A stretch of DNA of 64,000 bases from Gammaproteobacteria bacterium (GTDB taxonomy: Bacteria; Pseudomonadota; Gammaproteobacteria; UBA4575): assembly GCA_965207475.1 (NCBI GenBank), contig OZ242278.1, positions 1,589,935 to 1,653,934 of the forward strand, given 5' to 3'. The notes beneath the pieces were generated by a model. It saw only the letters and a list, made by a program, of their open reading frames with translations, had not been told where the DNA came from and ran no database searches. Both the position numbers and the translations under genes were made by a program. The stretch's first letter is position 1; every line of letters begins with the position of its first letter. This document shows positions 36,008 to 59,750 of the stretch, in pieces.

Positions 36008-36069
36008 TGGGTATTGCGGGTGTAGCCTGAATTCATACTGAAATAGGGGCAAGATTCGCAGAAATCAAC

Positions 36070-43526: not shown

Positions 43527-43773
43527 CTCCACCGCATTGACCTTCAGTCTGTGTTGCCGCGGATGGTAAATACCTTGATCAACCTTGGTTTGGACTCAGT
43601 GGATTCGGAGCACGTGGTCTAAGTTGGACTGCTCTCGGAGTAACAGGGTTGCAGGCTGCGAAATGGCATGTTTATTACTTGGCATGAGGCTTCCGTTGCA
43701 ATGAAGCTTGTTGCGCGACTTGCCGCCAAGGCCGTTCGCAGCTAGTCACGTCATTCCTGTGAGCAAGCGCGGC

Positions 43774-46104
43774 ATGAAAAAAGGGCAATTTGCCAGGCGA
43801 TTTGCCGAACAGGTGCTCACGGCCCGCTGGCTGGTCATCGTGGCCACGCTGTTACTGGTTGCGGGCGCATCAAGCGGCATCGCCCTGCTTGAATTCTCAG
43901 CCAACTACCGAATCTTCTTCGACGAAGACAATCCGCAGCTTCTGGCATTGGAAGCACTGGAGAATACTTACGGGAAGAACGAGAACATCGTGTTCCTGAT
44001 TGCCCCGGACGATGGTGACGCCACGTCACAAAACGCACTGTCGGCCGCCGTCTGGCTCACGGAAGCCGCCTGGTTGACGCCCTATTCAAGGCGAGTCGAC
44101 TCACTCGCCAATTTTCAGTACACGACTGCCGATGGCGACGATCTGTATGTGCGGGACCTTGTTGATCCGCAGGAACTGGCCCAGGCCGAGGTGCGGTCAC
44201 GAATTCGTGACGTTGCCCTGTCCGACCCGCGGATAGCAGGCACCATTCTAGCCCGGAATGCTGATGTCAGCGTTGTAAACGTCGCGGTCGAGCTGCCCGA
44301 GGAGGGCCTGCTGGAGGCTGTGGCCGAAGTCGCCGAATATGCCAGGTCGGTTGCCGCGGAGGCTGAAGAACGGTTTCCCGACATAGACCTTCGCATCGTC
44401 GGTACGGTCATGATCAACCAAACCTTCCTGGAAGCCTCGATCAACAGCCAGAAGGTTTTCCTGCCCGCAAGCCTGCTGCTCATGGCCTTGATCCTTGGTG
44501 TCCTCACACGGGGCTGGGCAGGGGTGGCGGCGACCGGAATTGTCATAGTCTTTTCCATTTTCACGTCAGTGGGCCTGGGTGTGTGGGTCGGCTTACCCTT
44601 TTCCCCGCCCGTCTCGCCAGCACCGACCATCGTGCTGATGATCGTCGTGGCAAACTGTGTGCACTTGCTGGTGGCTGTGCAGCAGCATTTGCGTGCGGGG
44701 GATTCCAAGCACGACGCCATCGTTGAAGCTGTCAGGCTCAACTTGCACCCGGTATTTCTGGCGAGTCTCACAACGGCGATTGGATTCTTGAGCATGAACT
44801 TTTCCGAAGTGCCGCCCTATCGTCATCTCGGAAACTTCGTCGCATTCGGAATCGTCGCCTCTTTCGTTCTCTCCGTCACCTTTCTTCCGGCCCTGCTTTC
44901 GCTTCTTCCTATCCGTGCGGCAAAGGACCGTCGGCTGCTCCGCGGACCCACAATGCACCGCTTGGCGGATGTTGTGTTGCGCCATAGAAAGCCGCTGTTT
45001 TGGGGATGGCTGGTGGTTGTGCTTGCAATGATTCTGTCCATTCCGCGAAACGAGCTCAATGATGTTCTGGTCCACTTTTTCGATGAGGGCGTTGAATTCC
45101 GGCAAGATGTGGACTTCATGGACGAGCACCTAAGCGGCAACACCCTGCTTGAGTACTCGCTGCACGCATCTGCTGAGGGAGGTGTCACCGATCCGCTTTT
45201 CCTCGCCGAGGTTTCGAGCTTCGCCGGCTGGTACCGTGACCAGCCCCCTGTACGCCACGTGTCGGTCATTACCGATACCTTTCAGCAACTTAACAAGAGC
45301 ATGCACGGAGACGACCCGGGTGCCTACCGAATACCGGAAAGCCAGGAACTGGCGGCACAATACCTGCTGCTTTACGAACTCTCGCTTCCGCAGGGTCTGG
45401 ACCTGAACAATCAGATTGACAGGTCCAGATCAGCCACGAGAGTGACGGTCTCGGCGGAAACACTTTCTTCGCAAGAAGTGCTTGAGCTGAATGCGCGTGC
45501 CGAGGCATGGCTAAAGGAAAATGCATCGCATGTTGCCGGCGTCAACAGCACCGGCCCCGCCGCGTTGTTCGCCTACATCGGGCATCGCAACATTCGGGCC
45601 ATGCTAGTCGGGACAATGGTTGTTCTCTTGGCAATTTCTGTCATTCTGCTCGTCGCGTTGCAATCACTGCGACTGGGCTTGATAAGCATCGTCCCCAATT
45701 TGATTCCTGCAGTGCTGGGCTTCGGTGTCTGGGGATTGATGGTCGGACAGGTTGGACTTTCGCTATCTGTCGTGGTGGCCATGACCGTCGGCATCGTCGT
45801 GGATGACACTGTGCATTTTCTCAGCAAGTACCAGCGGGCGCGAAATGAATACGGCCAGAGTCCCGAGGAAGCGGTACGCTACGCCTTTGACACGGCAGGC
45901 CGGGCCCTGTTTACAACGACGGTCGTGCTGGTGGCCGGTTTTTTGATTTTTATGTTTTCACCCTTCGTTCCCACCGCACAGGTTGGTGTCCTCACCGGGA
46001 TGATTATTGCCTTTGCATTCATCGCCGACCTGACACTCCTGCCTGCGTTGCTGACAGCGGTGGACCGGAATGCTGCAAAGCGGACCGCGCTTGCACCCGA
46101 CTGA
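43774..46104 (+). CDS. MMPL-family / RND-superfamily exporter (HpnN-like, two SSD-like 6-TM bundles)
   Basis: The 776-aa protein has an N-terminal TM (RWLVIVATLLLVAG) and two periplasmic domains with an overall MMPL layout. The ATG at 43774 is preferred over the TTG at 43708. Confidence 0.8.
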   Translation: MKKGQFARRFAEQVLTARWLVIVATLLLVAGASSGIALLEFSANYRIFFDEDNPQLLALEALENTYGKNENIVFLIAPDDGDATSQNALSAAVWLTEAAWLTPYSRRVDSLANFQYTTADGDDLYVRDLVDPQELAQAEVRSRIRDVALSDPRIAGTILARNADVSVVNVAVELPEEGLLEAVAEVAEYARSVAAEAEERFPDIDLRIVGTVMINQTFLEASINSQKVFLPASLLLMALILGVLTRGWAGVAATGIVIVFSIFTSVGLGVWVGLPFSPPVSPAPTIVLMIVVANCVHLLVAVQQHLRAGDSKHDAIVEAVRLNLHPVFLASLTTAIGFLSMNFSEVPPYRHLGNFVAFGIVASFVLSVTFLPALLSLLPIRAAKDRRLLRGPTMHRLADVVLRHRKPLFWGWLVVVLAMILSIPRNELNDVLVHFFDEGVEFRQDVDFMDEHLSGNTLLEYSLHASAEGGVTDPLFLAEVSSFAGWYRDQPPVRHVSVITDTFQQLNKSMHGDDPGAYRIPESQELAAQYLLLYELSLPQGLDLNNQIDRSRSATRVTVSAETLSSQEVLELNARAEAWLKENASHVAGVNSTGPAALFAYIGHRNIRAMLVGTMVVLLAISVILLVALQSLRLGLISIVPNLIPAVLGFGVWGLMVGQVGLSLSVVVAMTVGIVVDDTVHFLSKYQRARNEYGQSPEEAVRYAFDTAGRALFTTTVVLVAGFLIFMFSPFVPTAQVGVLTGMIIAFAFIADLTLLPALLTAVDRNAAKRTALAPD

Positions 46105-46393: not shown

Positions 46394-46645
46394 ATGAGAA
46401 GCGGAGATGATATGCTGAAGCAGATTGTTGAGAAGTCTGCCTTGAATGCGGAGTTCAGGCAACAGCTTCTTGATGATCCAAAATCTACCATCAGTGGGGA
46501 GCTGGGTATTACAATTCCCGATTCGATGAATGTCGTGGTCCATGAGAGCGACATGCAGACGGTGCATCTTGCACTGCCACCGGACCCGAACATCACCGAG
46601 GAGCAGCTTGAGGCGATTTCAGCCGGCCTTTGCTGTTGCTGGTAG
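46394..46645 (+). CDS. NHLP (nitrile-hydratase-leader-peptide) family RiPP precursor; predicted core LCCCW after a GA/GG-type cleavage site (…EAISAG|LCCCW)
   Basis: The leader reads KQIVEKSALNAEFRQQLLDDPKSTISGELGITIPDSMNVVVHESDMQTVHLALPP, which is characteristic of NHLP leaders. An AGGAG SD lies 7 nt upstream, and the protein is 83 aa with a C-terminal Cys3-Trp. Confidence 0.8.
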   Translation: MRSGDDMLKQIVEKSALNAEFRQQLLDDPKSTISGELGITIPDSMNVVVHESDMQTVHLALPPDPNITEEQLEAISAGLCCCW

Positions 46646-46768: not shown

Positions 46769-47827
46769 TCAGGTGGAAACCGCTCCGGAAAGTACCATGA
46801 ACACGTAGGCTTTCGCTTTTCGGAGTTGATTTTCAGATATGACCAGTTTGATGTGGTGAATGCCACGTAGCATGACAAAACGCCCGGACTTTGCAAAGAG
46901 CGTTGTCGGTTTCGAAACCCAGTCAGCAAGTGCCGTCAGTTTCTCCGAGTCTACAAGGTCCTCATGACCGAGGGCATCCAAAAACGGGTCCCAATCGGTC
47001 AGGCCATCGAGCCAATAACGTGAATCCTTTGTATATCTCTGCTTGACGATAAGCGTAAGGCCGAGCGTCGGACCAACACCTTCTTCCCGCACGTCAATAT
47101 TCACCCCGGTCCTGACGATGTTCACGCGTTTCTTGAAGCGTGCAATCACGGAATCGACCGCAGAGACCTGGCCCGGCCAACCCGTGTTTTCGAGATAGCC
47201 ACATATTTCCTGCTGCGATTTGAAACCCATGATTGCCAGGCGGATTGCACGTGAGCGAGACGGGAATATGCCGAACGAATCCATGCGCGTATCGCCTGGC
47301 TGCGCCAGGTAGGCTCGTTCGACATTCTCCCGCTTGGTGTCGTGCATCCCCCAGCCTACACTGGAAACTAGCGCTTCAACCACCAGACCGATATCGTTCA
47401 CCTGACCACGGGCTCCAATGATTGGCCGTTCCCCGGGCCGAAGGAACATTCCCGGAAGCGAACAGTTGCTTTCCTGCGCCGAGCCAATGTCATATTCCAG
47501 CATCAGCTTGCGGCCTACGATTTCACGCAGGGGCGAGTTTTCGGCATCCATTTGTGTACACAACCGCGCGATCGCTTTTGCAGTCTCATCTGTCCTGTCA
47601 GTCCGTGCGCGCTCCATGAAAAACCCTGCCGTCCTGGTTCCGCTTGCCAGGGAAACGCCGAAATCCGCTTCAGGCCTGTGCGTATGCAACGGCAGTTCAA
47701 AGCCGAACGGAAGGGCGCCCATGGTAATGGGATGTTTCCTGGCACATTCGAGTATGCGCTCCCATTCCGGGACTCCGATAAGAATCGGAGAAATCCTGTT
47801 TCGAAAGTGCTCAAGCAATTCACCCAT
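46769..47827 (-). CDS. Hypothetical protein (352 aa) in RiPP cluster, unknown fold
   Basis: The ORF has coding-like composition and a GAGGG SD but no motif I recognise. It is the last gene of the minus-strand block. Confidence 0.5.
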   Translation of the reverse strand: MGELLEHFRNRISPILIGVPEWERILECARKHPITMGALPFGFELPLHTHRPEADFGVSLASGTRTAGFFMERARTDRTDETAKAIARLCTQMDAENSPLREIVGRKLMLEYDIGSAQESNCSLPGMFLRPGERPIIGARGQVNDIGLVVEALVSSVGWGMHDTKRENVERAYLAQPGDTRMDSFGIFPSRSRAIRLAIMGFKSQQEICGYLENTGWPGQVSAVDSVIARFKKRVNIVRTGVNIDVREEGVGPTLGLTLIVKQRYTKDSRYWLDGLTDWDPFLDALGHEDLVDSEKLTALADWVSKPTTLFAKSGRFVMLRGIHHIKLVISENQLRKAKAYVFMVLSGAVST

Positions 47828-48292: not shown

Positions 48293-49594
48293 TCAGGCCC
48301 TCAAGATTTCTACGAGACGCTCCAGGGCCTCGATACAAAAAGCAGAGGTAACGGATTCAGAGCCATGTCCTATCTGCCCTACAGCGCCCCACTTCAGCGA
48401 CTGGTCACCAAACGCGAGAAGCTCCGGCCAACTGCCGTCCTCATGTTGCGAGCTTATGAGCCTTTCCACCTGACGTTTCGCATCGGTGCTTTCAAGGTTG
48501 CCAGTATTGTAGAGCGCTGACACGGCCTGGGCGGTCTGGAGGATGTTGCCGAATTCTCCCTGCTCATCACGCAAGCCCAGGATACGGTCCGCAAGTAGCG
48601 GGCGCAGTTGATCAAGGGCAGGTTGCACACGAATCATGGCACGGGTGATTGCATAGCAGATTGTGACAGTGTCGGGATACCATTTGGACGAGCCCTCGAG
48701 GCTCCCGTCGGCAATCAGGGATTTCAGCCATCGTTGGGCAGCCTTGGTTTCGGGGTTGTCACCGAGGTAAGCGATGACGTTTGCATTGACTACGGGGTCC
48801 GCTTCGATACGAAATCTCGACACGACATTGGGCTCGTCTTCCTCCAGTACCCAGGTCATGAAACGACCCTCCTCGTCACGGTTCGCCAAGATTCGCGGAA
48901 CATTCCTTCCCAGCAAGATCCAGGGATGAGTCCCGATGACAAGGGAGCAGGTGGTGGTACTGTCAAGATCCTGGGGCAGATGCCGGTAGTAGCGCCACAA
49001 TCCGGGGTATTCAATGGTGTCGGCAAGATACGCCTTGGTGGCGGTGCATAGGGCCCTGGCCTTCGCTTCATCGCAGCATTCCAGGGCCAGTACGCAAAGA
49101 GCCGAGATAAAAGGAGGTCTTTCGAAATGCCGTGGGATGTCCGGGTCGGCTATGTTGAACCGGATGCAGTGCCAGGCACCATTTTCGTCAATTGTGGATT
49201 CCAGGAAATCGAGGCCGCGGCGGATACTTTTCCTGCCCGCTTTTACAAGCTCCTTGGTGGTGGCTGCGTGCTGTCGGGCGTACTCACTTTCAGGGGCAGG
49301 GGAACGAAAAGCCGGTGCGGGGTCATGAAGTGTCTTGCGAAGATACTCAAGTGAAGCAACGCCTGTTTTAGCCGCCTCCCGTTCGGCCTCACTGAGTTTG
49401 CTACACGGCGGCAGCACCAAGTGAGTCGAGGTATAGGTTTCTTCGTGCACGTGAATTTCATGATCCTCGGCCAGCGTCACGCCGAGTTCCTTTTCGATTG
49501 TTTCTTTGGGCTTCCCGAGCAGGCGTTCGCGAAAGTCACTGTCCTCGCCCGCTCTCGACACGAGAAACTCTGCTGCGTTATTCGGCTTTTTCAT
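48293..49594 (-). CDS. NHLP-leader-like N-terminal domain fused to an alpha/alpha-toroid repeat domain (prenyltransferase/terpene-cyclase-like NGAW/DGSW repeats)
   Basis: The first ~65 aa (FRERLLGKPKETIEKELGVTLAEDHEIHVHEETYTSTHLVLPP) are paralogous to the precursor's leader. The remaining ~360 aa contain ENGAW and EDGSW repeat motifs. Confidence 0.6.
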   Translation of the reverse strand: MKKPNNAAEFLVSRAGEDSDFRERLLGKPKETIEKELGVTLAEDHEIHVHEETYTSTHLVLPPCSKLSEAEREAAKTGVASLEYLRKTLHDPAPAFRSPAPESEYARQHAATTKELVKAGRKSIRRGLDFLESTIDENGAWHCIRFNIADPDIPRHFERPPFISALCVLALECCDEAKARALCTATKAYLADTIEYPGLWRYYRHLPQDLDSTTTCSLVIGTHPWILLGRNVPRILANRDEEGRFMTWVLEEDEPNVVSRFRIEADPVVNANVIAYLGDNPETKAAQRWLKSLIADGSLEGSSKWYPDTVTICYAITRAMIRVQPALDQLRPLLADRILGLRDEQGEFGNILQTAQAVSALYNTGNLESTDAKRQVERLISSQHEDGSWPELLAFGDQSLKWGAVGQIGHGSESVTSAFCIEALERLVEILRA

Positions 49595-49951
49595 CGATGT
49601 TTTCCATTTTCGTGGGTCATGGTCGAACGTGAATGCTCAGCGGTTAACATACATGACGATTGGCGTGATTTCAGCAGGAGTGCTGTATTCGGGCATTCCT
49701 GTGTTTTCTGAAGTTGCCTGGCCGGGATACCGTAAGGCATTAAACCCATTCCGGATCTCGCCCGCTGCCTGAAAACAGATGAGTGACTGGCAGAGTCGCC
49801 CATGGCCTTGGAGGCGGTGTCGAAGAAACCTGTTACCATGATGCGGTCAAAACGGGTTTGTAGGCAACGACTGCTGAGGATGAAGTCGAACGGGGAATAC
49901 CTCGTGGATGATCCTGCAACGCTCGTCCGCCAGCCGGTCTGCCTGCCCGGA

Positions 49952-52894
49952 TCAGGCGATCTGTCTTTTGACCAGTTTTCTGAATACCCCTTCAGCCTCC
50001 ATGAGTTCCTTGAAGGAGCCGCTTTGCACAACTTTTCCGGTCTGTAACACGTAGATGCGATCAGTCTGTTGCAGCGTGGACAGGCGATGGGCGATGACAA
50101 CCCGGGTGGGGGTCAGGGCAGTGAGGTTCTGCATGACCTTGGCCTGGTTTTCGTTATCCAGCCAGTTGGTTGCCTCGTCAAACAGCATGATTCGCGGACT
50201 GCCGATCACCGAGCGGGCGATTGTGACGCGCTGACTTTCACCCCCTGACAAAACCGCTCCGCTGGACCCGACCATGGTCATCATGCCCATGGGCATGCCC
50301 TTGATTTCGTTCTCGACTTCTGCAACCCTGGTCGCTGTCCAGACATCCTCGGTCGCCACTTCCTCGTGATGACTGACCAGATTGTCCCAGATATCCATGG
50401 GGTGGAGCCCGACAGATTGTGGCACTGCGCCGATTTTCCGGCGCACCTGTTTCAGGTTCAGGTGCCTCAGGTCCCGCCCGTCGTAATACACTGCGCCAGC
50501 AGTCGGGCGGTCGACTCCAAGCGCGAGCCGGAACAGGGTGCTCTTGCCTGCACCGGACTCGCCGGTGATCGCGACAAATTCGCCAGGACGGGCGTGAATC
50601 GTCACATCATCGAGAATTAACGGGCCATCAGGATCGTAACGAAAGGAAACCCGGTCGAACAGAATTTCGCCACCCAGATATTCAACCGGCTCTCCTTCGG
50701 TCTCGGTTTCAGGAACTGCTGCGAGCAGCGGACGCATCTGGTCGAATGCAGGCAGCATGGCGGCAATGGTGCCGAAGGACTCGCCCAGCCGGGCGATTGC
50801 GGACTGGAAAACGATGAAGACCAGGTAGACGACGAGAAAATCACCGATCAGGATGTGCCGGTCGCTCACCGCTGCCACCGCGAATAGCAGTACCCCACCC
50901 GCGAGAAAGGGGAGCGCGGCACCAAATGCGCGTGCATGCCCCTCAAATGCCCCCAGTTCGAGTTCTGCGCGTTTCTGCTCGCGATAATCCTGCGCCCAGA
51001 TGGCGAATGCCGAACCTTCCGCGTTTTCCACGCGCAGTTTGGTGAAACCGCCCACGATCTGGAACAGCCTGCCGGAAACACGACGCGCTGCACGGATCAT
51101 CCGCCCATATGGTGAAATCTGGAGCAAGCCAAGGGCTACCGTGATCAGCAGCGAAGCCAGACTGAAGGCGAGGGTAATGACCCCGAGGGTGGTGTTGTAG
51201 AAGAAAATGATGCCAAATACCGGAAGCAGGAAAATAATCGACAGCAAGCTGTCGGCGACGACTCCTTGCAAGCCATCGCGAAGATTCTGGAACGTCATCC
51301 CCGACATGGCCAGGTCGCCGGTTGAATGGCGGTGCAGAATGCTTGCCGGAAGGCGCATGAGGCGGTCCCAAAAGGCAGCTTCGGCCCGCGATGCGGAACG
51401 ACCCTCAAGCCGCATCATTGCCGTGCTTTGAAACAGGTGCAGCAGTGCACCGAGCAGACCAAATACCGCCAGCGCCACGGCCACTGAATAGATCACTCCG
51501 GCACTTCCGCCTGCAGTTATTTCATTTGCAGCGTAGCCTAGGGCGAGGGCTGGCAACAGTTTGATCAGGCCGCCCGGAAGCCCGGAAATCACCAGCCGCA
51601 CCAGATCCGCGGCTGATCCATGCAGGGCGATTCCCAGCAGGTCAGACGGTTTCACGTTCTCCGAAGGCAAGGGGCGATAGAACATCCAGGCTTCTTCCCC
51701 CAGCGTGTTGGCGCGACCTGCTGCAATCCGCACGCTGCACTTGCTGACTGGGTCGATTTCCCGATAGCGCCCAAATTTTCCCGGCAGCAGCGCTACGGGC
51801 TGGCCATCCTCTGCCCGAAATCCCAGCATCGCGCTACTGTCGCCGCGCCACCAGTGGTCTTCGGCTTTCAATCGTACGCGCCGGGCACGTACGGCTGATG
51901 CATCAAGCACTTCAACGAGGCTGACCGGAGTATCGGAAGGTTCCGAGCGCGTGGGAATCTTGAAATCGATACCTTCATGGCGGCCGATGATTTGCAAGGC
52001 ATCTGTCAGGGCCGTGTCTTCGACACGGGTATCCTGGCCTGTCGGCAAGTCATAGATATTGAAAAGCCGCTGTCGTGCAGTTTTTTCAGCCGTACGTCGG
52101 CTGGTCGTCCGTGCACGTTCGAGATTCACTTCGTCGACCACGGCCAGTTGGCGGTTAAGGCGTTCCAGGGCGAATGCAACCGCGTGAAAAGATGCGAGCG
52201 CTGGCAGCAACATGTCTTGCTGAGCCAGTGTTTCCGTTGATTTACCCAGCAATGTGGCCCTGTCAAACAAGGTGAGCCAGCTTGTCCGCGTCAGCGGTAT
52301 CATGGTTTCATGTGAGCCGCTTGCTTCGGCAAGCTCTGCCTGGTCGACGATGTCCATGAACAGGAATTCGCCGCGCAGTGGCTTGGATACCCATACCACA
52401 TTGCGATGTACGGACAGTATGCAAGGTGGAAAGGTCCGTGCCATACCGGGATCGGCCAGCGCAGTTGCACGCGGAATGGGGCTTGCAAACCGAGAAAGTG
52501 TGTCAGTAATGGCGGTCAGCCAGGTATCCGTCTGCTCCGCCAGTTCTGCCGGATGAACCTCGGACAGCAAGGATGCCGGGAGGCGCTTCAGAAGAGTACC
52601 TGGCGATCCTTTTGCAATCAGGCTGAGGGTGGTATCTTTATTGTTGTCACGTTCGTCTGGTGCCACCCCCGGCAGTATCCAGCCCGCTTCGCGACGCAGC
52701 AGATGCTGCGGCGCTGCCTGTTCCACCCCGTCCTTGAATTCAACCAGGAACAGATTGACGGAACCCTGGTCAATAAACCAGACACTGCCTGGGTCGTCGA
52801 GTTTCACCGGCAAGTTGCCGGCACAAGGTACGGTTGTGCCGGAACGAGCTACGAGTTCGGCAATCGATGTGCAGTTCGGGCTTTTGTCCAGCAT
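49952..52894 (-). CDS. NHLP/NHLM-type bacteriocin ABC transporter, ATP-binding/permease protein without an active peptidase (N-terminal accessory domain + 6TM + NBD)
   Basis: The 980-aa protein has Walker A GESGAGKST and signature LSGGESQRV, with a ~450-aa N-terminal extension lacking the C39 Cys. Confidence 0.8.
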   Translation of the reverse strand: MLDKSPNCTSIAELVARSGTTVPCAGNLPVKLDDPGSVWFIDQGSVNLFLVEFKDGVEQAAPQHLLRREAGWILPGVAPDERDNNKDTTLSLIAKGSPGTLLKRLPASLLSEVHPAELAEQTDTWLTAITDTLSRFASPIPRATALADPGMARTFPPCILSVHRNVVWVSKPLRGEFLFMDIVDQAELAEASGSHETMIPLTRTSWLTLFDRATLLGKSTETLAQQDMLLPALASFHAVAFALERLNRQLAVVDEVNLERARTTSRRTAEKTARQRLFNIYDLPTGQDTRVEDTALTDALQIIGRHEGIDFKIPTRSEPSDTPVSLVEVLDASAVRARRVRLKAEDHWWRGDSSAMLGFRAEDGQPVALLPGKFGRYREIDPVSKCSVRIAAGRANTLGEEAWMFYRPLPSENVKPSDLLGIALHGSAADLVRLVISGLPGGLIKLLPALALGYAANEITAGGSAGVIYSVAVALAVFGLLGALLHLFQSTAMMRLEGRSASRAEAAFWDRLMRLPASILHRHSTGDLAMSGMTFQNLRDGLQGVVADSLLSIIFLLPVFGIIFFYNTTLGVITLAFSLASLLITVALGLLQISPYGRMIRAARRVSGRLFQIVGGFTKLRVENAEGSAFAIWAQDYREQKRAELELGAFEGHARAFGAALPFLAGGVLLFAVAAVSDRHILIGDFLVVYLVFIVFQSAIARLGESFGTIAAMLPAFDQMRPLLAAVPETETEGEPVEYLGGEILFDRVSFRYDPDGPLILDDVTIHARPGEFVAITGESGAGKSTLFRLALGVDRPTAGAVYYDGRDLRHLNLKQVRRKIGAVPQSVGLHPMDIWDNLVSHHEEVATEDVWTATRVAEVENEIKGMPMGMMTMVGSSGAVLSGGESQRVTIARSVIGSPRIMLFDEATNWLDNENQAKVMQNLTALTPTRVVIAHRLSTLQQTDRIYVLQTGKVVQSGSFKELMEAEGVFRKLVKRQIA

Positions 52895-55104
52895 CAGCCC
52901 GACTTAACCAGTTTGTAATACATGCCACCCTGGTCCGCAATCAACTCATCGTGCGTACCGCGCTGTACTGTAACGCCCTTGTCAAGCACGATAATTTCGT
53001 CACAATCCCGCACGGTACTCAGCCGGTGCGCCAAGATCAGGCAGGTGACACCGCGACGCCGCAAGGCATCATCAACGTATTCCTCTGTCGCTGCATCGAA
53101 CGCGCTGGTCGCCTCGTCCAGAATGAGCACTGTCGGATTGCCCACCAGCGCACGGGCGATTTCCAGCCGTTGTCGCTGGCCTCCACTGAAATTCACACCG
53201 CCTTCCTCGACGACGGTTGAATATCCTTGTGGCCTGAGCAGGATTTCGTCATGAATCTGGGCATCCCGCGAGGCGGCGAAGATGACTTCATCCGGTATGG
53301 CTGAGTTCCATAAGGTGATATTGTCGCGCAGCGACGCGGAAAAGAGCACGATTTCCTGATCCACCATGGAAATGGACTGCCGGAGCACTTCCTCGGGAAT
53401 CTCATCCCGCAGATGCCCATCGAACAGGATTTCGCCTGACCATGGCTGGTAGACACCCGAAACCAGACGTGCCAGGGTCGACTTGCCAGAACCACTGGGA
53501 CCGACTACGGCAACCCGCTGTCCTGGTTTGATCATGAGGCTGAAGTCCTGTATCAAAGGCGGTCGGCTCTTGTTGAAACCGAAGGTGACGTTTTGCAGTT
53601 CAAGCTGGCCGGCAAGCTGGAGCCGACCATTGAATGTGGGGATTGACTCCGATTCCGGACTTCGGCGGCTGTAAATGGGGTCTTCAGCGGTCTTGGAGAT
53701 ATCCTCAAGCCGTTGCAGATCGGTTTCGAGCGCCTGGCGTTTGTCGACGAACCCCAAAAAACGGCCAACAGGTGCCAGGAACATCTCTGCCAGGATATAG
53801 AACCCAACCAGTGCTCCCAGGGTCATTTCGCCGGTCATGACCAGGCTTCCCCCTATGCCGATGATCACGGCACTGCGAAGCACGGCAACCAGGCCCGGAA
53901 GCGCAGTATTGACCGAGCCCAGTTCGGAATAGAGCTGGCGCGCATGCAGTTCGCGCGCTTGATGACCGCTCCAGCGGGAAAAAAACCGGTCATCCGATCC
54001 TGTCATGCGCAGGTTGTCTGCATGGCTCAACATCTGCATGCCGACGCCTATCAACAATCCTTGTTCTCGCCGCATGGCCTGGCTGCGAACCCCCCGAAGC
54101 GCGTTGAGAAAGTGGAGCAACATTCCATGTGCAAGGGCCAGCAACAGTACCATCAGTGTGAGCAGGACATCGTAGGCCAGCATCGCGGCCAGTAACACCG
54201 CGCTCATTGCCATGTCGATAATGAGCACAAGAAACTGGTCGGTCAGGTTCTTCGCAATCCTGTCGATGGACGAGACCCGGTCAGTCAAATCACCTGCCAG
54301 CCTGTGTTCAAAAAACTCCACCGGCAATCGCAGTAACCGCGACACGCCCCGGTTGTAGCCAATCACCGATATCCGGACTTCGAGTCGCTTCAGGAACCGG
54401 TGCTTGAGCAGGGACAAAATGTATACCAGGACACCGCCGCCGAGCAGGGCTGCCACCAGTCCACCCCAGGGACCATGGTTTTCCAGAACATCGTCCACGA
54501 AAAAACTGAGAGCTACGGGCACAACAAGTGCCAGTAACGTCAACATGAATCCGCAAGCAATCACTACGGCAAGCACACTCCATGATCCGGCAAGCAAGGT
54601 GGTCAATTGACTGAGCAAGTCGGGACGCTCGCCGCCGGGTTTGAAATCGCCACTGCGCTTGAATCGCAGCGCAATTCCACTGTAGTCCTTGCTGAATTCT
54701 TCGGCAGTAACCCTGCGCCGCCCCGTGGACGGGTCATTGAGGTAGAAATAGCCGTCATCGAAACCCTCAAGGACAACGAAATGGCTGAATTGCCAGAACA
54801 AAATCAGAGGCAACTGCAGCTTCTTCAGTTGCTCAGCGCGTATACTGAGTCCATTGCATTCAAGACCATAGTGTCTGGAAGCGCGCGCGAGGCTCGCAGC
54901 ACTGCTGCCGTCTCGACTCACCTCGCATTTTTCGCGCAATTCCGTAAGCGGCACCCAGCGTCCGAAGTATGCCAATATGCTGCCAAGGCAGGCGGCACCA
55001 CATTCTGATGCGTGCATCTGTAGTAGGATTGGCGTGGTGATCCTTTGTTTCAAGGAGTCCGAGGCAGTGTTGTCTCCAGCCCCTTTAGAGGCGCTTGGCG
55101 GCAT
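52894..55104 (-). CDS. NHLP-type bacteriocin ABC transporter with N-terminal C39 peptidase domain (peptidase/permease/ATPase)
   Basis: A C39 active-site Cys lies in QMHASECGAACL, followed by 6 TM, Walker A GPSGSGKST and signature FSGGQRQR. Confidence 0.85.
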   Translation of the reverse strand: MPPSASKGAGDNTASDSLKQRITTPILLQMHASECGAACLGSILAYFGRWVPLTELREKCEVSRDGSSAASLARASRHYGLECNGLSIRAEQLKKLQLPLILFWQFSHFVVLEGFDDGYFYLNDPSTGRRRVTAEEFSKDYSGIALRFKRSGDFKPGGERPDLLSQLTTLLAGSWSVLAVVIACGFMLTLLALVVPVALSFFVDDVLENHGPWGGLVAALLGGGVLVYILSLLKHRFLKRLEVRISVIGYNRGVSRLLRLPVEFFEHRLAGDLTDRVSSIDRIAKNLTDQFLVLIIDMAMSAVLLAAMLAYDVLLTLMVLLLALAHGMLLHFLNALRGVRSQAMRREQGLLIGVGMQMLSHADNLRMTGSDDRFFSRWSGHQARELHARQLYSELGSVNTALPGLVAVLRSAVIIGIGGSLVMTGEMTLGALVGFYILAEMFLAPVGRFLGFVDKRQALETDLQRLEDISKTAEDPIYSRRSPESESIPTFNGRLQLAGQLELQNVTFGFNKSRPPLIQDFSLMIKPGQRVAVVGPSGSGKSTLARLVSGVYQPWSGEILFDGHLRDEIPEEVLRQSISMVDQEIVLFSASLRDNITLWNSAIPDEVIFAASRDAQIHDEILLRPQGYSTVVEEGGVNFSGGQRQRLEIARALVGNPTVLILDEATSAFDAATEEYVDDALRRRGVTCLILAHRLSTVRDCDEIIVLDKGVTVQRGTHDELIADQGGMYYKLVKSG

Positions 55105-55656
55105 TTATGACCGCCTCATTCGCAATAGTGTGACCGGGGCTTGCCTGCCAATTTTGATGACAACCTGGCATTCCCTGCTCGCAAGGGAAGCAAAATAAAG
55201 GCTTTCGTCGAGTGTGATGTTTACCCGGTGTAAGGACACCGGCGCTGCAGGGTCGAACACTGCCAGCTCCTCGGATAAGGGTATGGCGGTGATTTTTGCA
55301 ACCTTTCCGTCGAGTGAGTCAGCTTGTCCACCTGACTTTTCCAACTCTATCACCGCTGGCATCCCGGCCTTGATATGCGGTGCGACGTCGCTCCGGGCCC
55401 AGACGAGCACTTGCACGGTCCTGTTGCCCTCAAGCAGGTTTTCACCAGGCTCGACCAGCACGCCATCCACCGCGAGACTACGGGCCATGCTCCCGAAGAA
55501 GAGCCACGCAGCAAGGATGAACAGTAAAAGAGCAATGACAGCAACAAGAAGCCGCTCCCGCGGTGTGGAAATCGTCAGCAGCCGGTCAAGTTGTTCCCGT
55601 TCTTCCTTTGCTTCGGCAACAGTGTTGTGGAATGAGTCAAATGGATTATTGAACAC
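55105..55656 (-). CDS. Short HlyD-like secretion (membrane-fusion) protein of the NHLP export module
   Basis: A single N-terminal TM precedes a periplasmic domain. It is only 183 aa, against about 400 aa for typical NHLM secretion proteins, and is translationally coupled to the C39 ABC gene. Confidence 0.55.
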   Translation of the reverse strand: MFNNPFDSFHNTVAEAKEEREQLDRLLTISTPRERLLVAVIALLLFILAAWLFFGSMARSLAVDGVLVEPGENLLEGNRTVQVLVWARSDVAPHIKAGMPAVIELEKSGGQADSLDGKVAKITAIPLSEELAVFDPAAPVSLHRVNITLDESLYFASLASRECQVVIKIGRQAPVTLLRMRRS

Positions 55657-56150
55657 GACCGTGAATCTCCCTATGAAAAATCAGGCAGGGGCAAAAATCT
55701 GGTCCAGCTTGAGTAGGATTTTTAGAGATTATATGCAAATATCGATTGTGAAATATAAAATTTTCATGGTTCTGGAAATTTAGTGTGGTGTGTATCGGCG
55801 GAGGGCTTTCAGGCCAGGTCGTTTTCAGCTTCTTTATTTTGGTCAAGCCCCGTTTCTGGTCTTCCATCCGGAGGCAGTGGAGCCAGTAGCCTGTGATCGC
55901 GGCGGGAAGGGCATGGTACAGGTCGCCGGCAATCCCATGCCGTGGTGGCCTCCTCGTCGATGCCGGTGATCACCGGCATCGTGTCATGAATCCTCTGCCG
56001 AGTGCGCCCTGTTGGAATTTCCAGCCAGCCCATGGCTTCACCCTTTGCAGGGAATTCACGGTATAATGCCACTCGTTTGTCACGGTACCTGTGTAGATGT
56101 TTCCTGACTACGAAACTGCCGAAATCCGGCTTGTCGGCCGAGACTGGACA

Positions 56151-56969
56151 ATGGGCTTCCCGTGTACACAGGGTGCTTCGTTCAGTGTTCTGATTCTGTT
56201 ACTGGCGTGCTTCTGCCTGCTGCATACGCACGTCCTCGCCCGGGAAGAAACGCCGGAGGAGAAGGGTCTGAGAATTGCGCGTGAAGCAAGCGCCCGCAAC
56301 GACGGATTCGATGATTTCACTGCTGGAATGACGATGGTGCTGCGCGACCGGCAAGGTCGGGAGAGCATCCGTCAGATGCGCTTCAAGGTGCTGGAGGTGC
56401 CGGGTGATGGCGATAAGAGCCTGTTTGTGTTCGATCAGCCGCGAGACGTACAGGGGACCGCCCTGTTGACCCATGGCCACATTAACTCCCAGGACGACCA
56501 GTGGCTGTATCTGCCGGCCCTGAAAAGAGTGAAGCGCATCAGTGCCACGGCGCGTTCCGGGTCATTTATGGGAAGCGAGTTTTCCTACGAGGACATGAGC
56601 TCTCCGGAGGTGGAGGAATACACGTACAAATACCTTCGCGACGAGCCCTGCGGCGAACTCACCTGTACAGTGACCGAGCAAGTCCCTCTGGAGAAAAAAT
56701 CCGGATACAGCCGCAAGGTCATTTGGCAAGACACAGGCGAACTTCGCGTCTGGAAGATGGAGCTCTATGACCGAAGGAACTCGCATCTGAAAACGCTCAC
56801 TTTTGAAAGCTACAAGCAATACCTGGGCCGGTACTGGCGGGCAGGCGAACAGACGATGGTGAATCACTTGACCGGGGCGAGCACTGTGCTTAAATGGACC
56901 GATTACCGGTTTCGCACCAATCTTGAAGACAGCGAATTCACCAAACCGGCACTTCGGCGCGTGCGCTGA
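56151..56969 (+). CDS. Outer-membrane lipoprotein-sorting (LolA-like) family protein, typical partner of MMPL exporters
   Basis: A signal peptide precedes a WLYLPALKRVKRIS region typical of LolA-like/DUF1329-type proteins. Its stop is coupled to the downstream OMP gene. Confidence 0.6.
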   Translation: MGFPCTQGASFSVLILLLACFCLLHTHVLAREETPEEKGLRIAREASARNDGFDDFTAGMTMVLRDRQGRESIRQMRFKVLEVPGDGDKSLFVFDQPRDVQGTALLTHGHINSQDDQWLYLPALKRVKRISATARSGSFMGSEFSYEDMSSPEVEEYTYKYLRDEPCGELTCTVTEQVPLEKKSGYSRKVIWQDTGELRVWKMELYDRRNSHLKTLTFESYKQYLGRYWRAGEQTMVNHLTGASTVLKWTDYRFRTNLEDSEFTKPALRRVR

Positions 56970-58198
56970 TGCGATTCGGTGTCGCAATTTCAGCCCTCGT
57001 GTTCATGGCTGCCGCAGTCGCCGAAGTTCAGGCCCTTGACGTTTCGGGGGACCTGAGCTTACAGGCACGATGGTATCCGCAGTCGCCGGCTTTCCCGGGA
57101 CAGCATTCAAGTACCGTCGGGATGGTTTTCAAGCCGACGCTTTACTGGGATTTTACAGAAAGCACCAGCTTCACCTTTACCCCGCTTTATCGATTCGATA
57201 GAGCCGATTCACGGCGGACGCATGCGGACCTGCGGGAGGCCTACCTGTTGACATATGGAGACTGGGGCGAGAATTCCTGGGAGCTTCGGCTGGGGCTTGA
57301 CCGTGTATTCTGGGGTGTGGCCGAGATTCATAACCTCGTGGATATCATCAACCAACTGGACCGTGTCGAGCACCCGCGCGACCGACCCAAGCTGGGTCAG
57401 CCTATGGCACATCTGACGATTTCCGGTGACTGGGGTCTCGCTGAATTGTTTCTGCTGCCGTACCATCGCAAGCTCACGTTTCCGGGGCGTTCCGGGCGTC
57501 TCCGCTCGGAACGCCTGATCGAAGATGAAGGCCTGTACGAGAGCGGTGCCAAGGAACGCCATGTGGATTTTGCGTTCCGCTATAGCCATGGCGTGGGGTT
57601 GCTTGATTTTGGCCTGAGTACCTTTGTTGGAACGAGCCGGGATCCCTTGTTTCTTGCTGCCAACCCATCCGGACCATTGCCGGGAATTGACACGCCCTTG
57701 ATCCCGTACTACGAGCAGATTCGGCAATTCGGGCTCGAAGCCCAGTTCACGACCGAGTCCTGGCTTTACAAGATGGAAGCCATTCGCCGTAGCGGAGCGC
57801 GCAATCTCCTGGGCCAAGAGGAGGATTACAACGCCTTCATCCTGGGCCTGGAGCGCACTCTCTATGCGTTGTTTGATTCCACTGCGGACATGACCCTCCT
57901 TGGTGAGTGGTTCTACGATGATCGTGGAAGCCGTGCTACAAGTGTCTGGCAGAACGACCTGTTTATCGCGGGCTTCCTTGCACTCAACGATGTACAGGGT
58001 ACAGAGCTCGTGGCTGGCATCCTGACGGACCTCCGCCATGAATCCAGTACGCTGAACATGGAACTGAAACGCCGGTTGTCGGATAGCTGGTCGATGCGCC
58101 TGGAAGCGTTCGCGAACATACGCGCGAACCCGGAGGATTTGACCTACGATGGGCGGCGCGACAGCTTCGTCGGTATTGATTTCACACTCAGTTTCTGA
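56969..58198 (+). CDS. Putative outer-membrane beta-barrel protein (C-terminal aromatic residue, alternating amphipathic strands)
   Basis: A signal peptide (AAAVAEVQA) is present and the protein ends in F. It forms a trio with the LolA-like and MMPL genes. Confidence 0.5.
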   Translation: MRFGVAISALVFMAAAVAEVQALDVSGDLSLQARWYPQSPAFPGQHSSTVGMVFKPTLYWDFTESTSFTFTPLYRFDRADSRRTHADLREAYLLTYGDWGENSWELRLGLDRVFWGVAEIHNLVDIINQLDRVEHPRDRPKLGQPMAHLTISGDWGLAELFLLPYHRKLTFPGRSGRLRSERLIEDEGLYESGAKERHVDFAFRYSHGVGLLDFGLSTFVGTSRDPLFLAANPSGPLPGIDTPLIPYYEQIRQFGLEAQFTTESWLYKMEAIRRSGARNLLGQEEDYNAFILGLERTLYALFDSTADMTLLGEWFYDDRGSRATSVWQNDLFIAGFLALNDVQGTELVAGILTDLRHESSTLNMELKRRLSDSWSMRLEAFANIRANPEDLTYDGRRDSFVGIDFTLSF

Positions 58199-58405
58199 TG
58201 ATGCACGTGGCGGGTGCCATACAGGTTGCCTTCAGCAACTGACACCCAGCAGATGCTGAACAGCAGGGCAAGACGGGCCTTGCTGCTGCAAGCCAGTGTC
58301 TTTCTTGGAGACCATGAATTACCTGCAGGGCCGCAGTCGGGCTGACCCATGAAAAAGTTTGTGAACCGTGACAATGATAGGTGACGATGCTAGGATTTTG
58401 CGGGA

Positions 58406-59750
58406 GTGTTGTGTACACGACACATCCAAATATCCCGAGAAGGTGTTATCGACCGACATCTGTGGAAGTCATGTAGGGTGATTCAGCCGGGCAGTAAAAC
58501 ATTACGGAAGATTGCGGTTGTCGGGCGGGGGACCGCAGGGTCCTTGGCGGCAGCAAGCATAGCGCGACTTCACCCCGACAGCGACTACGAACTGCACCAC
58601 ATATATGACTCGCGCATCCCGGTCATTGGAGTGGGTGAAGGCAGTTGGCCGAGCCTGGTTCAACAATTGCAACAACTGACAAGTTTGCCCCATGACACCA
58701 TCCAGCAGCACTTGAGAGGAACCCGCAAGTACGGGGTTGCATTCGAGGGATGGGGTCGACGCAATCGAAACTTCACGCACTACTTTACACCGCGAAAGGT
58801 GTCCTACGCCTACCACCTGTCCGCCGACTTGATGGCGGATTTGCTGCACGAAAACACGCGCGCGCCACATCGATGCGAAAGTGCGCGATATCACCAGGAT
58901 AGAGGGTGGTGCACGGGTGGAGTTCGAGGGCCTGGCGCCGGAGCACTACGATTTAGTCTTTGATGCCCGCGGGTTTCCCAGGAAACTCCATCCAGACCAG
59001 CACATCGATATTTCTTTCATTCCCACCAATACAGCCGTCATCCGCCGCTGTCCGGCGATTATCAAGGAAGAGCAGGATGGACCCGTGCTGCAACATACCT
59101 ATACCCGTGCCGTTGCATGTCCGCACGGGTGGATATTCGTTATTCCGCTTACAGTACATACATCTTACGGGTACATCTTCAACCGCGATGTGTCCAGCCT
59201 TGCCGAAGTCGAATCAGACTTTGATGTTTTCCTTGACACCGATGGCGTGTCGGAATTTGAGCAACGTGCTGTCATACCGTTTCCCAATTTTGTCCACCGC
59301 CAGATTTATGATGGTGCGGTGGCTCGCATAGGCAATGCAGCCGCCTTCATGGAGCCCCTTGAAGCAACGGCCATTGTATCGGCCCAGATACAGATTGGGA
59401 TGGTACTCCACATGCGTCTCAACCGTTCGATAGAGTATCTTGAACGTGACGTGCCGATGGTCAATCAATTTCTTGTCAACAACATCCTCTGCTACGGCCT
59501 GTTCGTCGGTTGGCACTATTCCTGTGGCTCTAAGTATGATAGTGGATTTTGGCGCCATGCTCGTGACCGGGTTTGGCCACGATATCGTAAGGCAACAGAT
59601 CCCGAAGTTGTGGGCTGTGCCGCACTCCGCAAATTCGACGAAATGTTCGAATTGATGAGCCAGTCGAGCATCGACAAGGCAGACTGGACTCGAATGTGCG
59701 CGGTCCCGCTCACCAGTTATGTGCAGATGTCCGAGGGTCTTGGCTGCTAG
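58406..59750 (+). pseudogene. Flavin-dependent tryptophan halogenase, disrupted by a +1/-1 frameshift near 58860-58875 (assembly error or true pseudogene)
   Basis: The two overlapping ORFs (58406..58963 and 58881..59750) together carry GRGTAGS (GxGxxG), GWIFVIP (WxWxIP-like) and GNAAAFMEPLEATAI halogenase motifs. Removing one base in the ACGCGCGCGCCA run restores ...HENTRAHIDAKVRDITRIEGG. Confidence 0.7.

What the first reader, a model, noticed from the sequence alone, without database searches (positions are those of the whole stretch)
58406..59750. Frameshifted flavin-dependent tryptophan halogenase next to a Trp-terminated RiPP core
The two overlapping ORFs together encode a complete PrnA/RebH-family halogenase (GxGxxG, WxWxIP-like GWIFVIP, and GNAAAFMEPLEATAI). 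The frames switch inside the ACGCGCGCGCC run at ~58860-58875. Deleting one base there restores ...LHENTRAHIDAKVRDITRIEGG... Either the assembly has an indel in a GC dinucleotide repeat or the gene is a recent pseudogene. In both cases the cluster's only Trp (LCCCW) is an obvious halogenation target, which links this gene to the RiPP block.
Basis: seen in the sequence. Interest (0 to 1): 0.6.

Follow-up and report, generated by a model that had tools for sequence, protein, structure and literature searches.

The report
Broken srpI peptide-brominase gene
This is a copy of srpI, the already characterised enzyme that brominates the last tryptophan of the sponge-symbiont peptide SrpE (core LCCCW). 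Here it is knocked out of frame by loss of one CG unit from a short CG repeat, so the biology is known and only the damage is specific to this strain.

Summary
ORFs 58406-58963 and 58881-59750 are the two halves of one flavin-dependent halogenase gene (Pfam PF04820, E 3.8e-42). The frames switch in the CG run at 58857-58864.

- **The lesion.** Three close relatives instead carry (CG)5 where the window has (CG)4, so the window has lost 2 bp. The intact protein reads ...TRARHIDAKV.
- **Identity.** The repaired 424-aa protein is 79% identical over its full length to the experimentally characterised brominase SrpI. Lys84 and the GWIFVIP motif are in register. The precursor at 46394-46645 is 83% identical to SrpE and has the same core, LCCCW.
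- **Linkage.** In 77 of 80 sponge or coral MAG loci from about ten phyla, srpI lies within 10 kb of other srp genes. All 38 complete SrpE copies end in AG-LCCCW. The link to the RiPP block is therefore supported and already published. The expected reaction is Trp-6 bromination, not chlorination.
- **Real or artefact.** I favour a recent real pseudogene (about 0.65) over an assembly error (about 0.3). It is the only coding indel in 15.7 kb. The same copy carries R215C at a residue invariant in 82 of 82 homologues. Amber stops disrupt srpI in three other genomes.

Novelty: already known. Interest is low.

The parts
58478..59750 (+). srpI, peptidyl tryptophan-6 brominase gene, disrupted as assembled. 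The 424-aa form starts at GTG 58478; a longer gene-caller start lies at 58406.
   Evidence: PF04820, E 3.8e-42. After repair it is 79% identical over its full length to the characterised SrpI. It is 99% identical to the intact P0001.
58857..58864 (+). (CG)4 tract, the site of the 2-bp deletion. Relatives have (CG)5, encoding T-R-A-R-H.
   Evidence: Alignments to L001, L082 and L002. About 18 other lineages carry the same (CG)5 tract, all in frame.
58865..58963 (+). Out-of-frame tail of the N-terminal product (PHRCESARYHQDRGWCTGGVRGPGAGALRFSL) and its stop codon.
   Evidence: Translation.
58523..58540 (+). GxGxxG FAD-binding motif (GRGTAG, residues 16-21).
   Evidence: All three Gly residues are invariant in 82 of 82 homologues.
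58727..58729 (+). Codon of the catalytic Lys84.
   Evidence: Lys84 is named as the catalytic residue of SrpI in PMC10858898. It is invariant in 82 of 82 homologues.
59118..59120 (+). TGT codon for Cys215. This is a window-specific R215C change at a residue that is Arg in every homologue.
59127..59147 (+). GWIFVIP, the SrpI form of the halogenase WxWxIP motif.
   Evidence: The characterised SrpI has the identical motif. W219, F221, V222, I223 and P224 are invariant.
59346..59369 (+). FMEPLEAT motif, which holds the conserved halogenase glutamate.
   Evidence: It aligns to FVEPLES of MibH and other halogenases.
46394..46645 (+). srpE, an 83-aa proteusin (NHLP) precursor: leader ...NITEEQLEAISAG, core LCCCW.
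   Evidence: TIGR03793, E 1.9e-18. It is 83% identical to the published SrpE, with the same length and the same core.
41011..43359 (+). srpC-type fused leader-binding/YcaO cyclodehydratase, which converts Cys to thiazoline.
   Evidence: PF02624, E 3.7e-95; TIGR03604 and TIGR03882. Its role is taken from PMC10286304.
38456..40903 (+). Fatty-acid-desaturase / GlnE-like nucleotidyltransferase fusion. It travels with the cluster and marks its left edge.
   Evidence: It recurs next to srpC in many loci. The genes to its left are housekeeping genes.
43708..46104 (+). MMPL/RND-type transporter of the cluster.
46769..47827 (-). Conserved 352-aa protein that matches no known family.
   Evidence: No Pfam, NCBIfam or PDB match. 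It lies adjacent to srpE in many loci.
48293..49594 (-). 433-aa protein with an NHLP-leader-like N-terminus fused to a large C-terminal domain.
   Evidence: TIGR03793, E 8e-13, just below the cut-off. PDB 8TB1 proteusin leader, E 0.0017. It is conserved in about 50 loci.
49952..55104 (-). Two NHLP-bacteriocin ABC exporters. ABC2 spans 49952-52894. The C39-peptidase ABC1 spans 52894-55104.
   Evidence: TIGR03797, E 1e-199; TIGR03796, E 1e-252.
55105..55656 (-). Short (183-aa) HlyD-like secretion protein.
   Evidence: TIGR03794, E 3e-5, N-terminal part only. The same short form is present across phyla.
56097..58198 (+). LolA-like (56097-56969) and DUF1302-like (56969-58198) outer-membrane proteins that travel with the cluster.

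Best explanation
**What it is.** The locus is srpI. It is the flavin-dependent brominase of an srp ('sponge-derived RiPP proteusin') gene cluster that spans window 38456-59750.

**How the intact system works (shown by others).**
1. The 83-aa precursor SrpE carries a nitrile-hydratase-like leader and the core LCCCW.
2. The YcaO enzyme SrpC converts its three Cys residues to thiazolines.
3. SrpI binds the leader through the LxxxxL region, which reads NITEEQL here.
4. Using FADH2 from a separate flavin reductase, O2 and bromide, SrpI forms an electrophilic bromine species held by Lys84.
5. It brominates C6 of the C-terminal Trp indole.

Export and leader removal by the C39 ABC exporter pair is inferred from the family annotations of those genes.

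**What happened in this genome.** One CG unit of a (CG)5 tract in codons 127-130 has been lost. Translation keeps residues 1-129, which include GxGxxG and Lys84. It then runs 32 out-of-frame codons to a stop at 58961-58963. The remaining 294 residues, with GWIFVIP and the FMEPLEAT segment, lie in another frame and have no Shine-Dalgarno-like sequence upstream.

**Predicted consequence (inferred).** As assembled, the gene is a recent pseudogene. This strain would be predicted to make, at most, the non-brominated tri-thiazoline peptide.
For: **Identity**
- PF04820, E 3.8e-42.
- 79% identity over the full length to the characterised SrpI sequence.
- Lys84, Pro105, Val108 and Ser109 fall at the published residue numbers.
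- SrpE is 83% identical with an identical core.
- A YcaO gene and NHLP exporter genes lie in the same cluster.
- srpI lies within 10 kb of other srp genes in 77 of 80 genomes. All 38 complete SrpE copies end in AG-LCCCW, some only 180-600 bp from srpI.

**Lesion**
- The 2-bp deletion is seen against three relatives.

**Evidence that the lesion is real**
- It is the only indel inside coding sequence in 15.7 kb aligned to L001. All other indels against L001 and L002 are intergenic.
- The same allele carries R215C at a position that is Arg in 82 of 82 homologues.
- Independent knock-outs of srpI exist elsewhere. Amber stops occur at Q76 in L082 (the same 90% cluster), E151 in L007 and W366 in L026.
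Against: - No reads are available. The frameshifted allele is on record from a single 2.14-Mb contig. I could not find it in any independent assembly.
- A short dinucleotide repeat in GC-rich sequence is a plausible place for a consensus error.
- Apart from R215C there is no decay. The window lineage has 6 synonymous and 3 non-synonymous changes, which is no worse than gcvT or gcvP next door. If the gene is dead, it died very recently.
- The identity of this particular protein as a brominase rests on 79% identity to the tested enzyme, not on an assay.
Confidence: 0.65

Rival explanations
1. The gene is intact in the organism, and the missing CG is an assembly or consensus error in a short dinucleotide repeat. 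The strain would then make the normal brominated product.
For: The lesion sits in a low-complexity (CG)n run. The allele is known from one contig only. The gene shows purifying-selection-like divergence, with 6 synonymous and 3 non-synonymous changes and no other stop. At least ten members of the same 90% cluster are full length. Error-ridden contigs of this lineage do exist, for example L083, where gcvP and other genes are also fragmented.
Against: There is no other coding indel in 15.7 kb compared with L001, or in the stretch shared with L002, so the assembly is not generally indel-prone. About 18 other assemblies carry the same (CG)5 tract without error. R215C at an invariant residue on the same allele is unexpected for a gene under selection. 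Real nonsense alleles of srpI occur in three other MAGs.
Confidence: 0.3
2. The (CG)n tract is a slipped-strand phase-variation switch, or a site of programmed frameshifting, that turns bromination on and off.
For: The length change is by one repeat unit, as in slipped-strand mispairing. The exact (CG)5 tract recurs in many lineages.
Against: The tract has only 4-5 units. The window is the only one of about 92 close copies examined with a length change. The other broken copies are point nonsense mutations at unrelated positions. The tract is explained by the conserved peptide T-R-A-R-H in a GC-rich gene. No slippery site and no Shine-Dalgarno-like sequence precedes GTG 58881.
Confidence: 0.03
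3. It is a PrnA/RebH-type halogenase of free tryptophan, as database names ('tryptophan 7-halogenase') suggest, and is functionally unrelated to the RiPP genes.
For: Source annotations of homologues read 'tryptophan 7-halogenase'. The protein shares the superfamily motifs, and PDB matches to PrnA, RebH and Thal reach E 1e-9 to 1e-16.
Against: At 424 aa it is about 90-125 residues shorter than those enzymes, and the alignments end near chain residue 410-445 of 511-554. The 79%-identical SrpI did not brominate free Trp and needs the proteusin leader (PMC10286304). Its linkage to srpE and srpC holds across about ten phyla.
Confidence: 0.02

Closest known systems
SrpI, the flavin-dependent peptidyl tryptophan-6 brominase of sponge-derived RiPP proteusin (srp) clusters (Nguyen et al. 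2021 JACS, cited in PMC10286304; PMC10286304; PMC10858898)
   Same: 79% identity over the full length. The same 424-aa architecture. Lys84, GWIFVIP, and the 105-109 surface loop positions P105, V108 and S109. The same partner genes: SrpE with core LCCCW, and the YcaO enzyme SrpC. The same habitat signal, since its closest relatives are all sponge or coral MAGs.
   Different: The reading frame is broken by a 2-bp deletion. Arg215, invariant elsewhere, is Cys. Loop residues 106-107 are Arg-Lys instead of Gln-Gln. The leader motif is NITEEQL instead of NLTEEQL; NITEEQL is the commoner natural variant (33 of 38 loci; also noted in bioRxiv 10.1101/2023.06.09.544420). In this genome srpI lies 11.8 kb from srpE, next to gcvT and gcvP.
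MibH, lanthipeptide NAI-107 tryptophan-5 chlorinase (PDB 5UAO)
   Same: It is the best solved-structure match (E 5.6e-24). It is also a flavin-dependent halogenase that acts on a peptide-bound Trp of a RiPP.
   Different: MibH is 541 aa and chlorinates. [quoted passage not shown] SrpI requires the leader and only brominates (PMC10286304, PMC10858898).
PrnA / RebH / Thal free-tryptophan halogenases
   Same: The same superfamily (PF04820), GxGxxG motif, catalytic Lys, conserved Glu, and two-component FADH2 chemistry.
   Different: Those enzymes are 511-554 aa, with a C-terminal module that binds free Trp, and they use the canonical WxWxIP motif. The window protein is 424 aa with WxFxIP, and its characterised orthologue does not accept free Trp.

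Membership tests
Flavin-dependent halogenases (Pfam PF04820 Trp_halogenase) | Significant match to the family profile | tested here: met
   E 3.8e-42, 145 bits against a cut-off of 21. There are 30 solved tryptophan-halogenase-type chains at E <= 6.3e-9, the best being MibH at 5.6e-24.
Flavin-dependent halogenases (Pfam PF04820 Trp_halogenase) | GxGxxG dinucleotide-binding motif near the N-terminus | tested here: met
   GRGTAG at residues 16-21, window 58523-58540. The motif is invariant in 82 homologues.
Flavin-dependent halogenases (Pfam PF04820 Trp_halogenase) | Catalytic lysine that holds the hypohalous or haloamine species | tested here: met
   Lys84 in GTRKYG, window 58727-58729. It aligns with the Lys of MibH (TWKLG). 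It is invariant in 82 of 82 homologues.
Flavin-dependent halogenases (Pfam PF04820 Trp_halogenase) | WxWxIP motif | tested here: inconclusive
   The window has GWIFVIP, where the second Trp is Phe. The experimentally active SrpI has the identical variant, so the deviation does not preclude activity.
Flavin-dependent halogenases (Pfam PF04820 Trp_halogenase) | Predicted halogenase fold | tested here: inconclusive
   An AlphaFold2 model of the intact orthologue P0001, built on a shallow 27-sequence alignment, gave a mean pLDDT of 47. That is too poor for a fold search.
SrpI peptidyl brominase (srp cluster) | Close sequence relationship to the characterised enzyme over the full length | tested here: met
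   338 of 427 positions identical (79%), end to end. The reference sequence was taken from the supplement of PMC10286304.
SrpI peptidyl brominase (srp cluster) | Cognate proteusin precursor SrpE with a C-terminal Trp (core LCCCW) in the same cluster | tested here: met
   srpE at 46394-46645 is 83% identical to the published SrpE, with core LCCCW. All 38 complete orthologues near srpI end in AG-LCCCW.
SrpI peptidyl brominase (srp cluster) | YcaO cyclodehydratase (SrpC) in the same cluster | tested here: met
   Window 41011-43359: PF02624, E 3.7e-95; TIGR03604, E 2e-81.
SrpI peptidyl brominase (srp cluster) | Uninterrupted reading frame | tested here: not met
   A 2-bp deletion at 58857-58864 splits the gene. 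Whether the deletion is real could not be tested without reads.
SrpI peptidyl brominase (srp cluster) | Leader-dependent, bromide-specific halogenation of the C-terminal Trp at indole C6 | not testable with these tools
   Known only for the 79%-identical orthologue (PMC10286304, PMC10858898).
PrnA/RebH-type free-tryptophan halogenases | Protein of about 510-550 aa with a C-terminal free-Trp binding module | tested here: not met
   The window protein is 424 aa. Alignments to PrnA, RebH, PyrH and Thal stop at about chain residue 410-445 of 511-554.

The most novel reading that the evidence does not exclude
srpI is repeatedly and independently knocked out in natural sponge-symbiont populations while the rest of the srp cluster stays intact. 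The cases are this frameshift plus amber stops in three other genomes, about 4 of 92 copies. On this reading, bromination is a dispensable, strain-variable decoration, and brominated and des-bromo forms of the still-unidentified srp product coexist in sponges.
Probability: 0.4. Interest if true: 0.3.

Novelty: already known. Interest (0 to 1): 0.15.

Why it matters
It matters little beyond annotation.

- **Annotation.** The window contains a textbook srp cluster. The gene is best labelled 'srpI, peptidyl Trp-6 brominase, frameshifted' rather than 'tryptophan 7-halogenase'.
- **Practical use.** SrpI is used as a bromination biocatalyst. Natural variants such as R215C and the Arg-Lys loop at 106-107, and natural knock-outs, could tell enzymologists which residues matter.
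- **Ecology.** If the lesion is real, this strain is a natural des-bromo producer. It could help to test what bromination contributes to the unknown ecological role of the srp peptide.

Tried and rejected
- **Finding the source contig and independent copies of the (CG)4 allele.** Exact-product look-ups of the 185-aa fragment, the 289-aa fragment and the neighbouring 409-aa protein returned no DNA. The cluster look-up showed only that the 289-aa fragment is on record from one 2,140,536-bp contig.
- **Metagenome scans.** An allele-spanning DNA pattern found nothing in metagenome contigs. A protein-guided scan there gave ten close srpI copies, all intact and none from this lineage.
- **Structure prediction.** AlphaFold2 on the intact orthologue with a 27-sequence alignment gave pLDDT 47. 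I ran no fold search because the model is unreliable, and the sequence evidence already decides the family.
- **L083 as a third broken copy.** I rejected it. That low-coverage contig also has gcvP, CbbQ and a TPP enzyme fragmented, so its frameshift is an assembly artefact.
- **All internal stops being TAG.** I judged this not meaningful. For GAG and CAG codons, TAG is the only stop reachable by one substitution.
- **Elevated dN/dS in the window lineage.** It is not elevated relative to gcvT or gcvP.
- **Original paper.** The 2021 srp paper (PMC8780398) and the 2022 mpr paper (PMC9746716) are not held. I therefore could not compare the published gene lettering srpA-srpI with the 13-gene set found here.
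- **Promoter and terminator scan around srpI.** It gave nothing above shuffled expectation.

Full report
**1. Observation**

The + strand between 58406 and 59750 holds two overlapping ORFs. ORF 58406..58963 has its codon starts at coordinate mod 3 = 2. ORF 58881..59750 has its codon starts at mod 3 = 0. Joined, they match Pfam Trp_halogenase PF04820 at E 3.8e-42, with 145 bits against a cut-off of 21.

| Motif | Window coordinates |
|---|---|
| GRGTAG (GxGxxG) | 58523-58540 |
| GWIFVIP | 59127-59147 |
| FMEPLEAT, inside GNAAAFMEPLEATAI | 59346-59369 |

A catalytic-type lysine sits in GTRKYG, with its AAG codon at 58727-58729.

A continuous product is possible only if the frame changes between 58833 and 58963.

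**2. The lesion**

The closest database protein, P0001, is 99% identical and uninterrupted. Its locus, L001, comes from GCA_011523795.1 and has the same gene order as the window.

- DNA alignment shows the window has A(CG)4CCAC at 58857-58864 where L001 has A(CG)5CCAC.
- A second strain (L082) matches L001 here. A sister-species MAG (L002) has the same tract length with one substitution.
- The derived event is therefore the loss of 2 bp, one CG unit, which removes Arg130. The ancestral peptide is ...HENTRARHIDAKV.

The window product keeps residues 1-129. It then reads 32 out-of-frame codons to the stop at 58961-58963. The first possible restart is GTG 58881, which has no Shine-Dalgarno-like sequence in front of it.

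**3. What the gene is**

Published work describes SrpI as a flavin-dependent brominase from marine-sponge microbiomes. The papers are PMC10286304 and PMC10858898.

- SrpI brominates indole C6 of the C-terminal Trp of the proteusin precursor SrpE, whose core is LCCCW.
- The three Cys residues of that core are first converted to thiazolines by the YcaO enzyme SrpC.
- SrpI needs the leader to be attached, and the LxxxxL region of the leader is critical.
- Lys84 is the catalytic lysine, and a K84A mutant was inactive.
- No chlorination was seen, and free Trp was not accepted.

The SrpI and SrpE sequences are printed in the supplement of PMC10286304.

- The repaired window protein, starting at GTG 58478, is 79% identical to SrpI from end to end.
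- Lys84, Pro105, Val108 and Ser109 fall exactly at the published residue numbers.
- The window precursor at 46394-46645 is 83 aa, like SrpE. It is 83% identical and has the identical ...EAISAG/LCCCW end.
- A fused leader-binding/YcaO cyclodehydratase lies at 41011-43359.

The window therefore carries an srp cluster, and the gene in question is its srpI.

**4. Linkage to the RiPP genes**

A scan of one genome per species found 139 relatives, of which the best 80 were kept as loci. All are MAGs at 76-94% identity, and where the record title names a source it is a sponge or coral. The phyla include Acidobacteriota, Alpha- and Gammaproteobacteria, Binatia, Gemmatimonadota, Nitrospinota, Latescibacterota, Opitutales and Thermodesulfobacteriota.

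A tblastn search with the window's proteins gave the following results.

- 77 of 80 loci have other srp genes within 10 kb of srpI.
- The recurring partners are SrpE, a 352-aa protein of unknown family, SrpC, a desaturase/GlnE-like fusion and a 433-aa NHLP-leader fusion. The set also includes two NHLP ABC exporters, a 183-aa HlyD-like protein, an MMPL transporter, a LolA-like protein and a DUF1302-like protein.
- Their order varies among lineages.
- All 38 complete SrpE orthologues end in AG-LCCCW. Some lie only 180-600 bp from srpI.

In the window this 13-gene set occupies 38456-59750. Housekeeping genes lie to the left and gcvT/gcvP lie to the right. gcvT and gcvP were found beside srpI only in the window's own lineage (L001, L002, L082 and L083).

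**5. Real mutation or artefact**

This cannot be settled without reads.

*In favour of a real lesion*

- Over 15.7 kb aligned to L001 at 98.4% identity, there are three other indels, and all are intergenic. The same holds for L002. The assembly is therefore not generally indel-prone.
- About 18 other assemblies carry the identical (CG)5 tract in frame.
- Polarised with L002 as outgroup, the window lineage has 6 synonymous and 3 non-synonymous changes in srpI.
- One of those changes, R215C (TGT at 59118-59120), hits a residue that is Arg in all 82 homologues compared. It lies three residues before the invariant GWIFVIP motif. That is unexpected for a gene still under selection.
- srpI carries in-frame amber stops in three other genomes with intact neighbours:

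| Locus | Change | Codon change | Note |
|---|---|---|---|
| L082 | Q76 to stop | CAG to TAG | same 90% cluster as the window |
| L007 | E151 to stop | GAG to TAG | – |
| L026 | W366 to stop | TGG to TAG | – |

- Other srp genes show a similar low background of lesions: MMPL has 2 stops, and ABC2 has 2 stops and 1 split.

*In favour of an artefact*

- The site is a dinucleotide repeat.
- The allele is on record from one contig only.
- There is no further decay.
- At least ten cluster members are full length.
- I could not find a second, independent observation of the (CG)4 allele.

I put a real, recent pseudogene at about 0.65 and an assembly error at about 0.3. Phase variation or programmed frameshifting gets a few per cent. 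The tract is short, only this one of about 92 close copies has a changed tract length, and the other knock-outs are unrelated point mutations.

**6. Mechanism and consequence**

*Shown by others for the orthologue.* SrpI carries out FADH2-dependent, leader-guided, bromide-specific Trp-6 bromination of tri-thiazoline SrpE.

*Inferred here.* The N-terminal fragment has GxGxxG and Lys84. The C-terminal fragment has GWIFVIP and the FMEPLEAT segment. Neither alone can form the active enzyme. If the lesion is real, the cluster would yield at most a non-brominated product. No flavin reductase gene is evident inside the conserved set.

**7. Comparison with known families, and novelty**

The gene belongs to the halogenase superfamily and specifically to the SrpI family. 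It is not a PrnA/RebH-type free-tryptophan halogenase. At 424 aa it lacks the C-terminal region of those 511-554-aa enzymes, and its characterised orthologue rejects free Trp.

The best solved relative is the lanthipeptide chlorinase MibH (5UAO, E 5.6e-24). MibH differs in being leader-independent and in chlorinating.

The cluster, the enzyme, its substrate and its wide distribution across sponge-symbiont phyla are all published. The sources are Nguyen et al. 2021 (via PMC10286304), PMC9426513 and bioRxiv 10.1101/2023.06.09.544420.

Only the strain-level damage is new: the CG-unit deletion plus R215C.

Noticed in passing
window 38456-59750; loci L002-L081: A fixed set of 13 genes travels together across about ten phyla but in shuffled order. 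Besides srpE, srpC and srpI it includes an MMPL transporter, a LolA-like protein and a DUF1302-like protein. These three look like a lipid or outer-membrane export module. That may bear on the still-unknown final srp product.
   Followed up: partly
window 48293-49594 (-): A 433-aa protein has an N-terminus resembling an NHLP/proteusin leader (TIGR03793, E 8e-13; PDB 8TB1, E 0.0017). It is fused to a domain of about 350 aa with only a faint squalene-cyclase-repeat hit. It is conserved at 67-79% identity in about 50 srp loci. Its role is unknown; it could be a second substrate, a leader mimic or a scaffold.
   Followed up: partly
window 38456-40903 (+): An 815-aa fusion of a fatty-acid desaturase domain and a GlnE-like nucleotidyltransferase domain sits next to the YcaO gene. 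It recurs beside srpC in many loci at 46-56% identity.
   Followed up: no
window 46769-47827 (-): A 352-aa protein matches nothing in Pfam, NCBIfam or the PDB. It lies adjacent to srpE in most loci at 70-81% identity.
   Followed up: partly
window 55105-55656 (-): The HlyD-like secretion protein is only 183 aa and matches only the first 56 positions of the 421-position TIGR03794 model. The same short form is conserved across phyla, so it is a genuine short variant rather than a truncation in this genome.
   Followed up: partly
L082 1145-1147; L007 about 6070; L026 about 11120: In-frame TAG stops disrupt srpI in three other MAGs, at Q76, E151 and W366. Stops or splits also occur in MMPL (L011, L059) and ABC2 (L010, L079, L052). 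Together these suggest a low background of decay in srp clusters.
   Followed up: partly
L045, L073 (Silicimonas MAGs), L064 (Boseongicola MAG): These loci carry srpI at 77-80% identity with no other srp gene detected in the available flanks. L045 has the full 10 kb on each side. These may be orphan halogenase copies in Rhodobacterales.
   Followed up: no
window 49679-49809: About 132 bp are present in the window but absent from L001. They lie in the intergenic space between the ABC2 stop codon and the start of the 433-aa gene.
   Followed up: no
window 58368-58394: A 13-bp unit (GTGACAATGATAG) is repeated 2.1 times just upstream of srpI. It overlaps the only sigma-70-like match in the region, and that match is not above shuffled expectation.
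   Followed up: no
window 35264-36052 (-): An FNR-like oxidoreductase (NAD_binding_1 domain) lies 2.4 kb left of the cluster. SrpI needs a separate flavin reductase, and none is evident in the conserved set. I did not test whether this gene is linked to srp in other genomes.
   Followed up: no
L083 (ERZ25072196 ctg177315): This is a low-coverage contig of the same lineage in which srpI, gcvP, CbbQ and a TPP enzyme are all fragmented. It shows how an error-prone assembly looks, in contrast to the window.
   Followed up: yes
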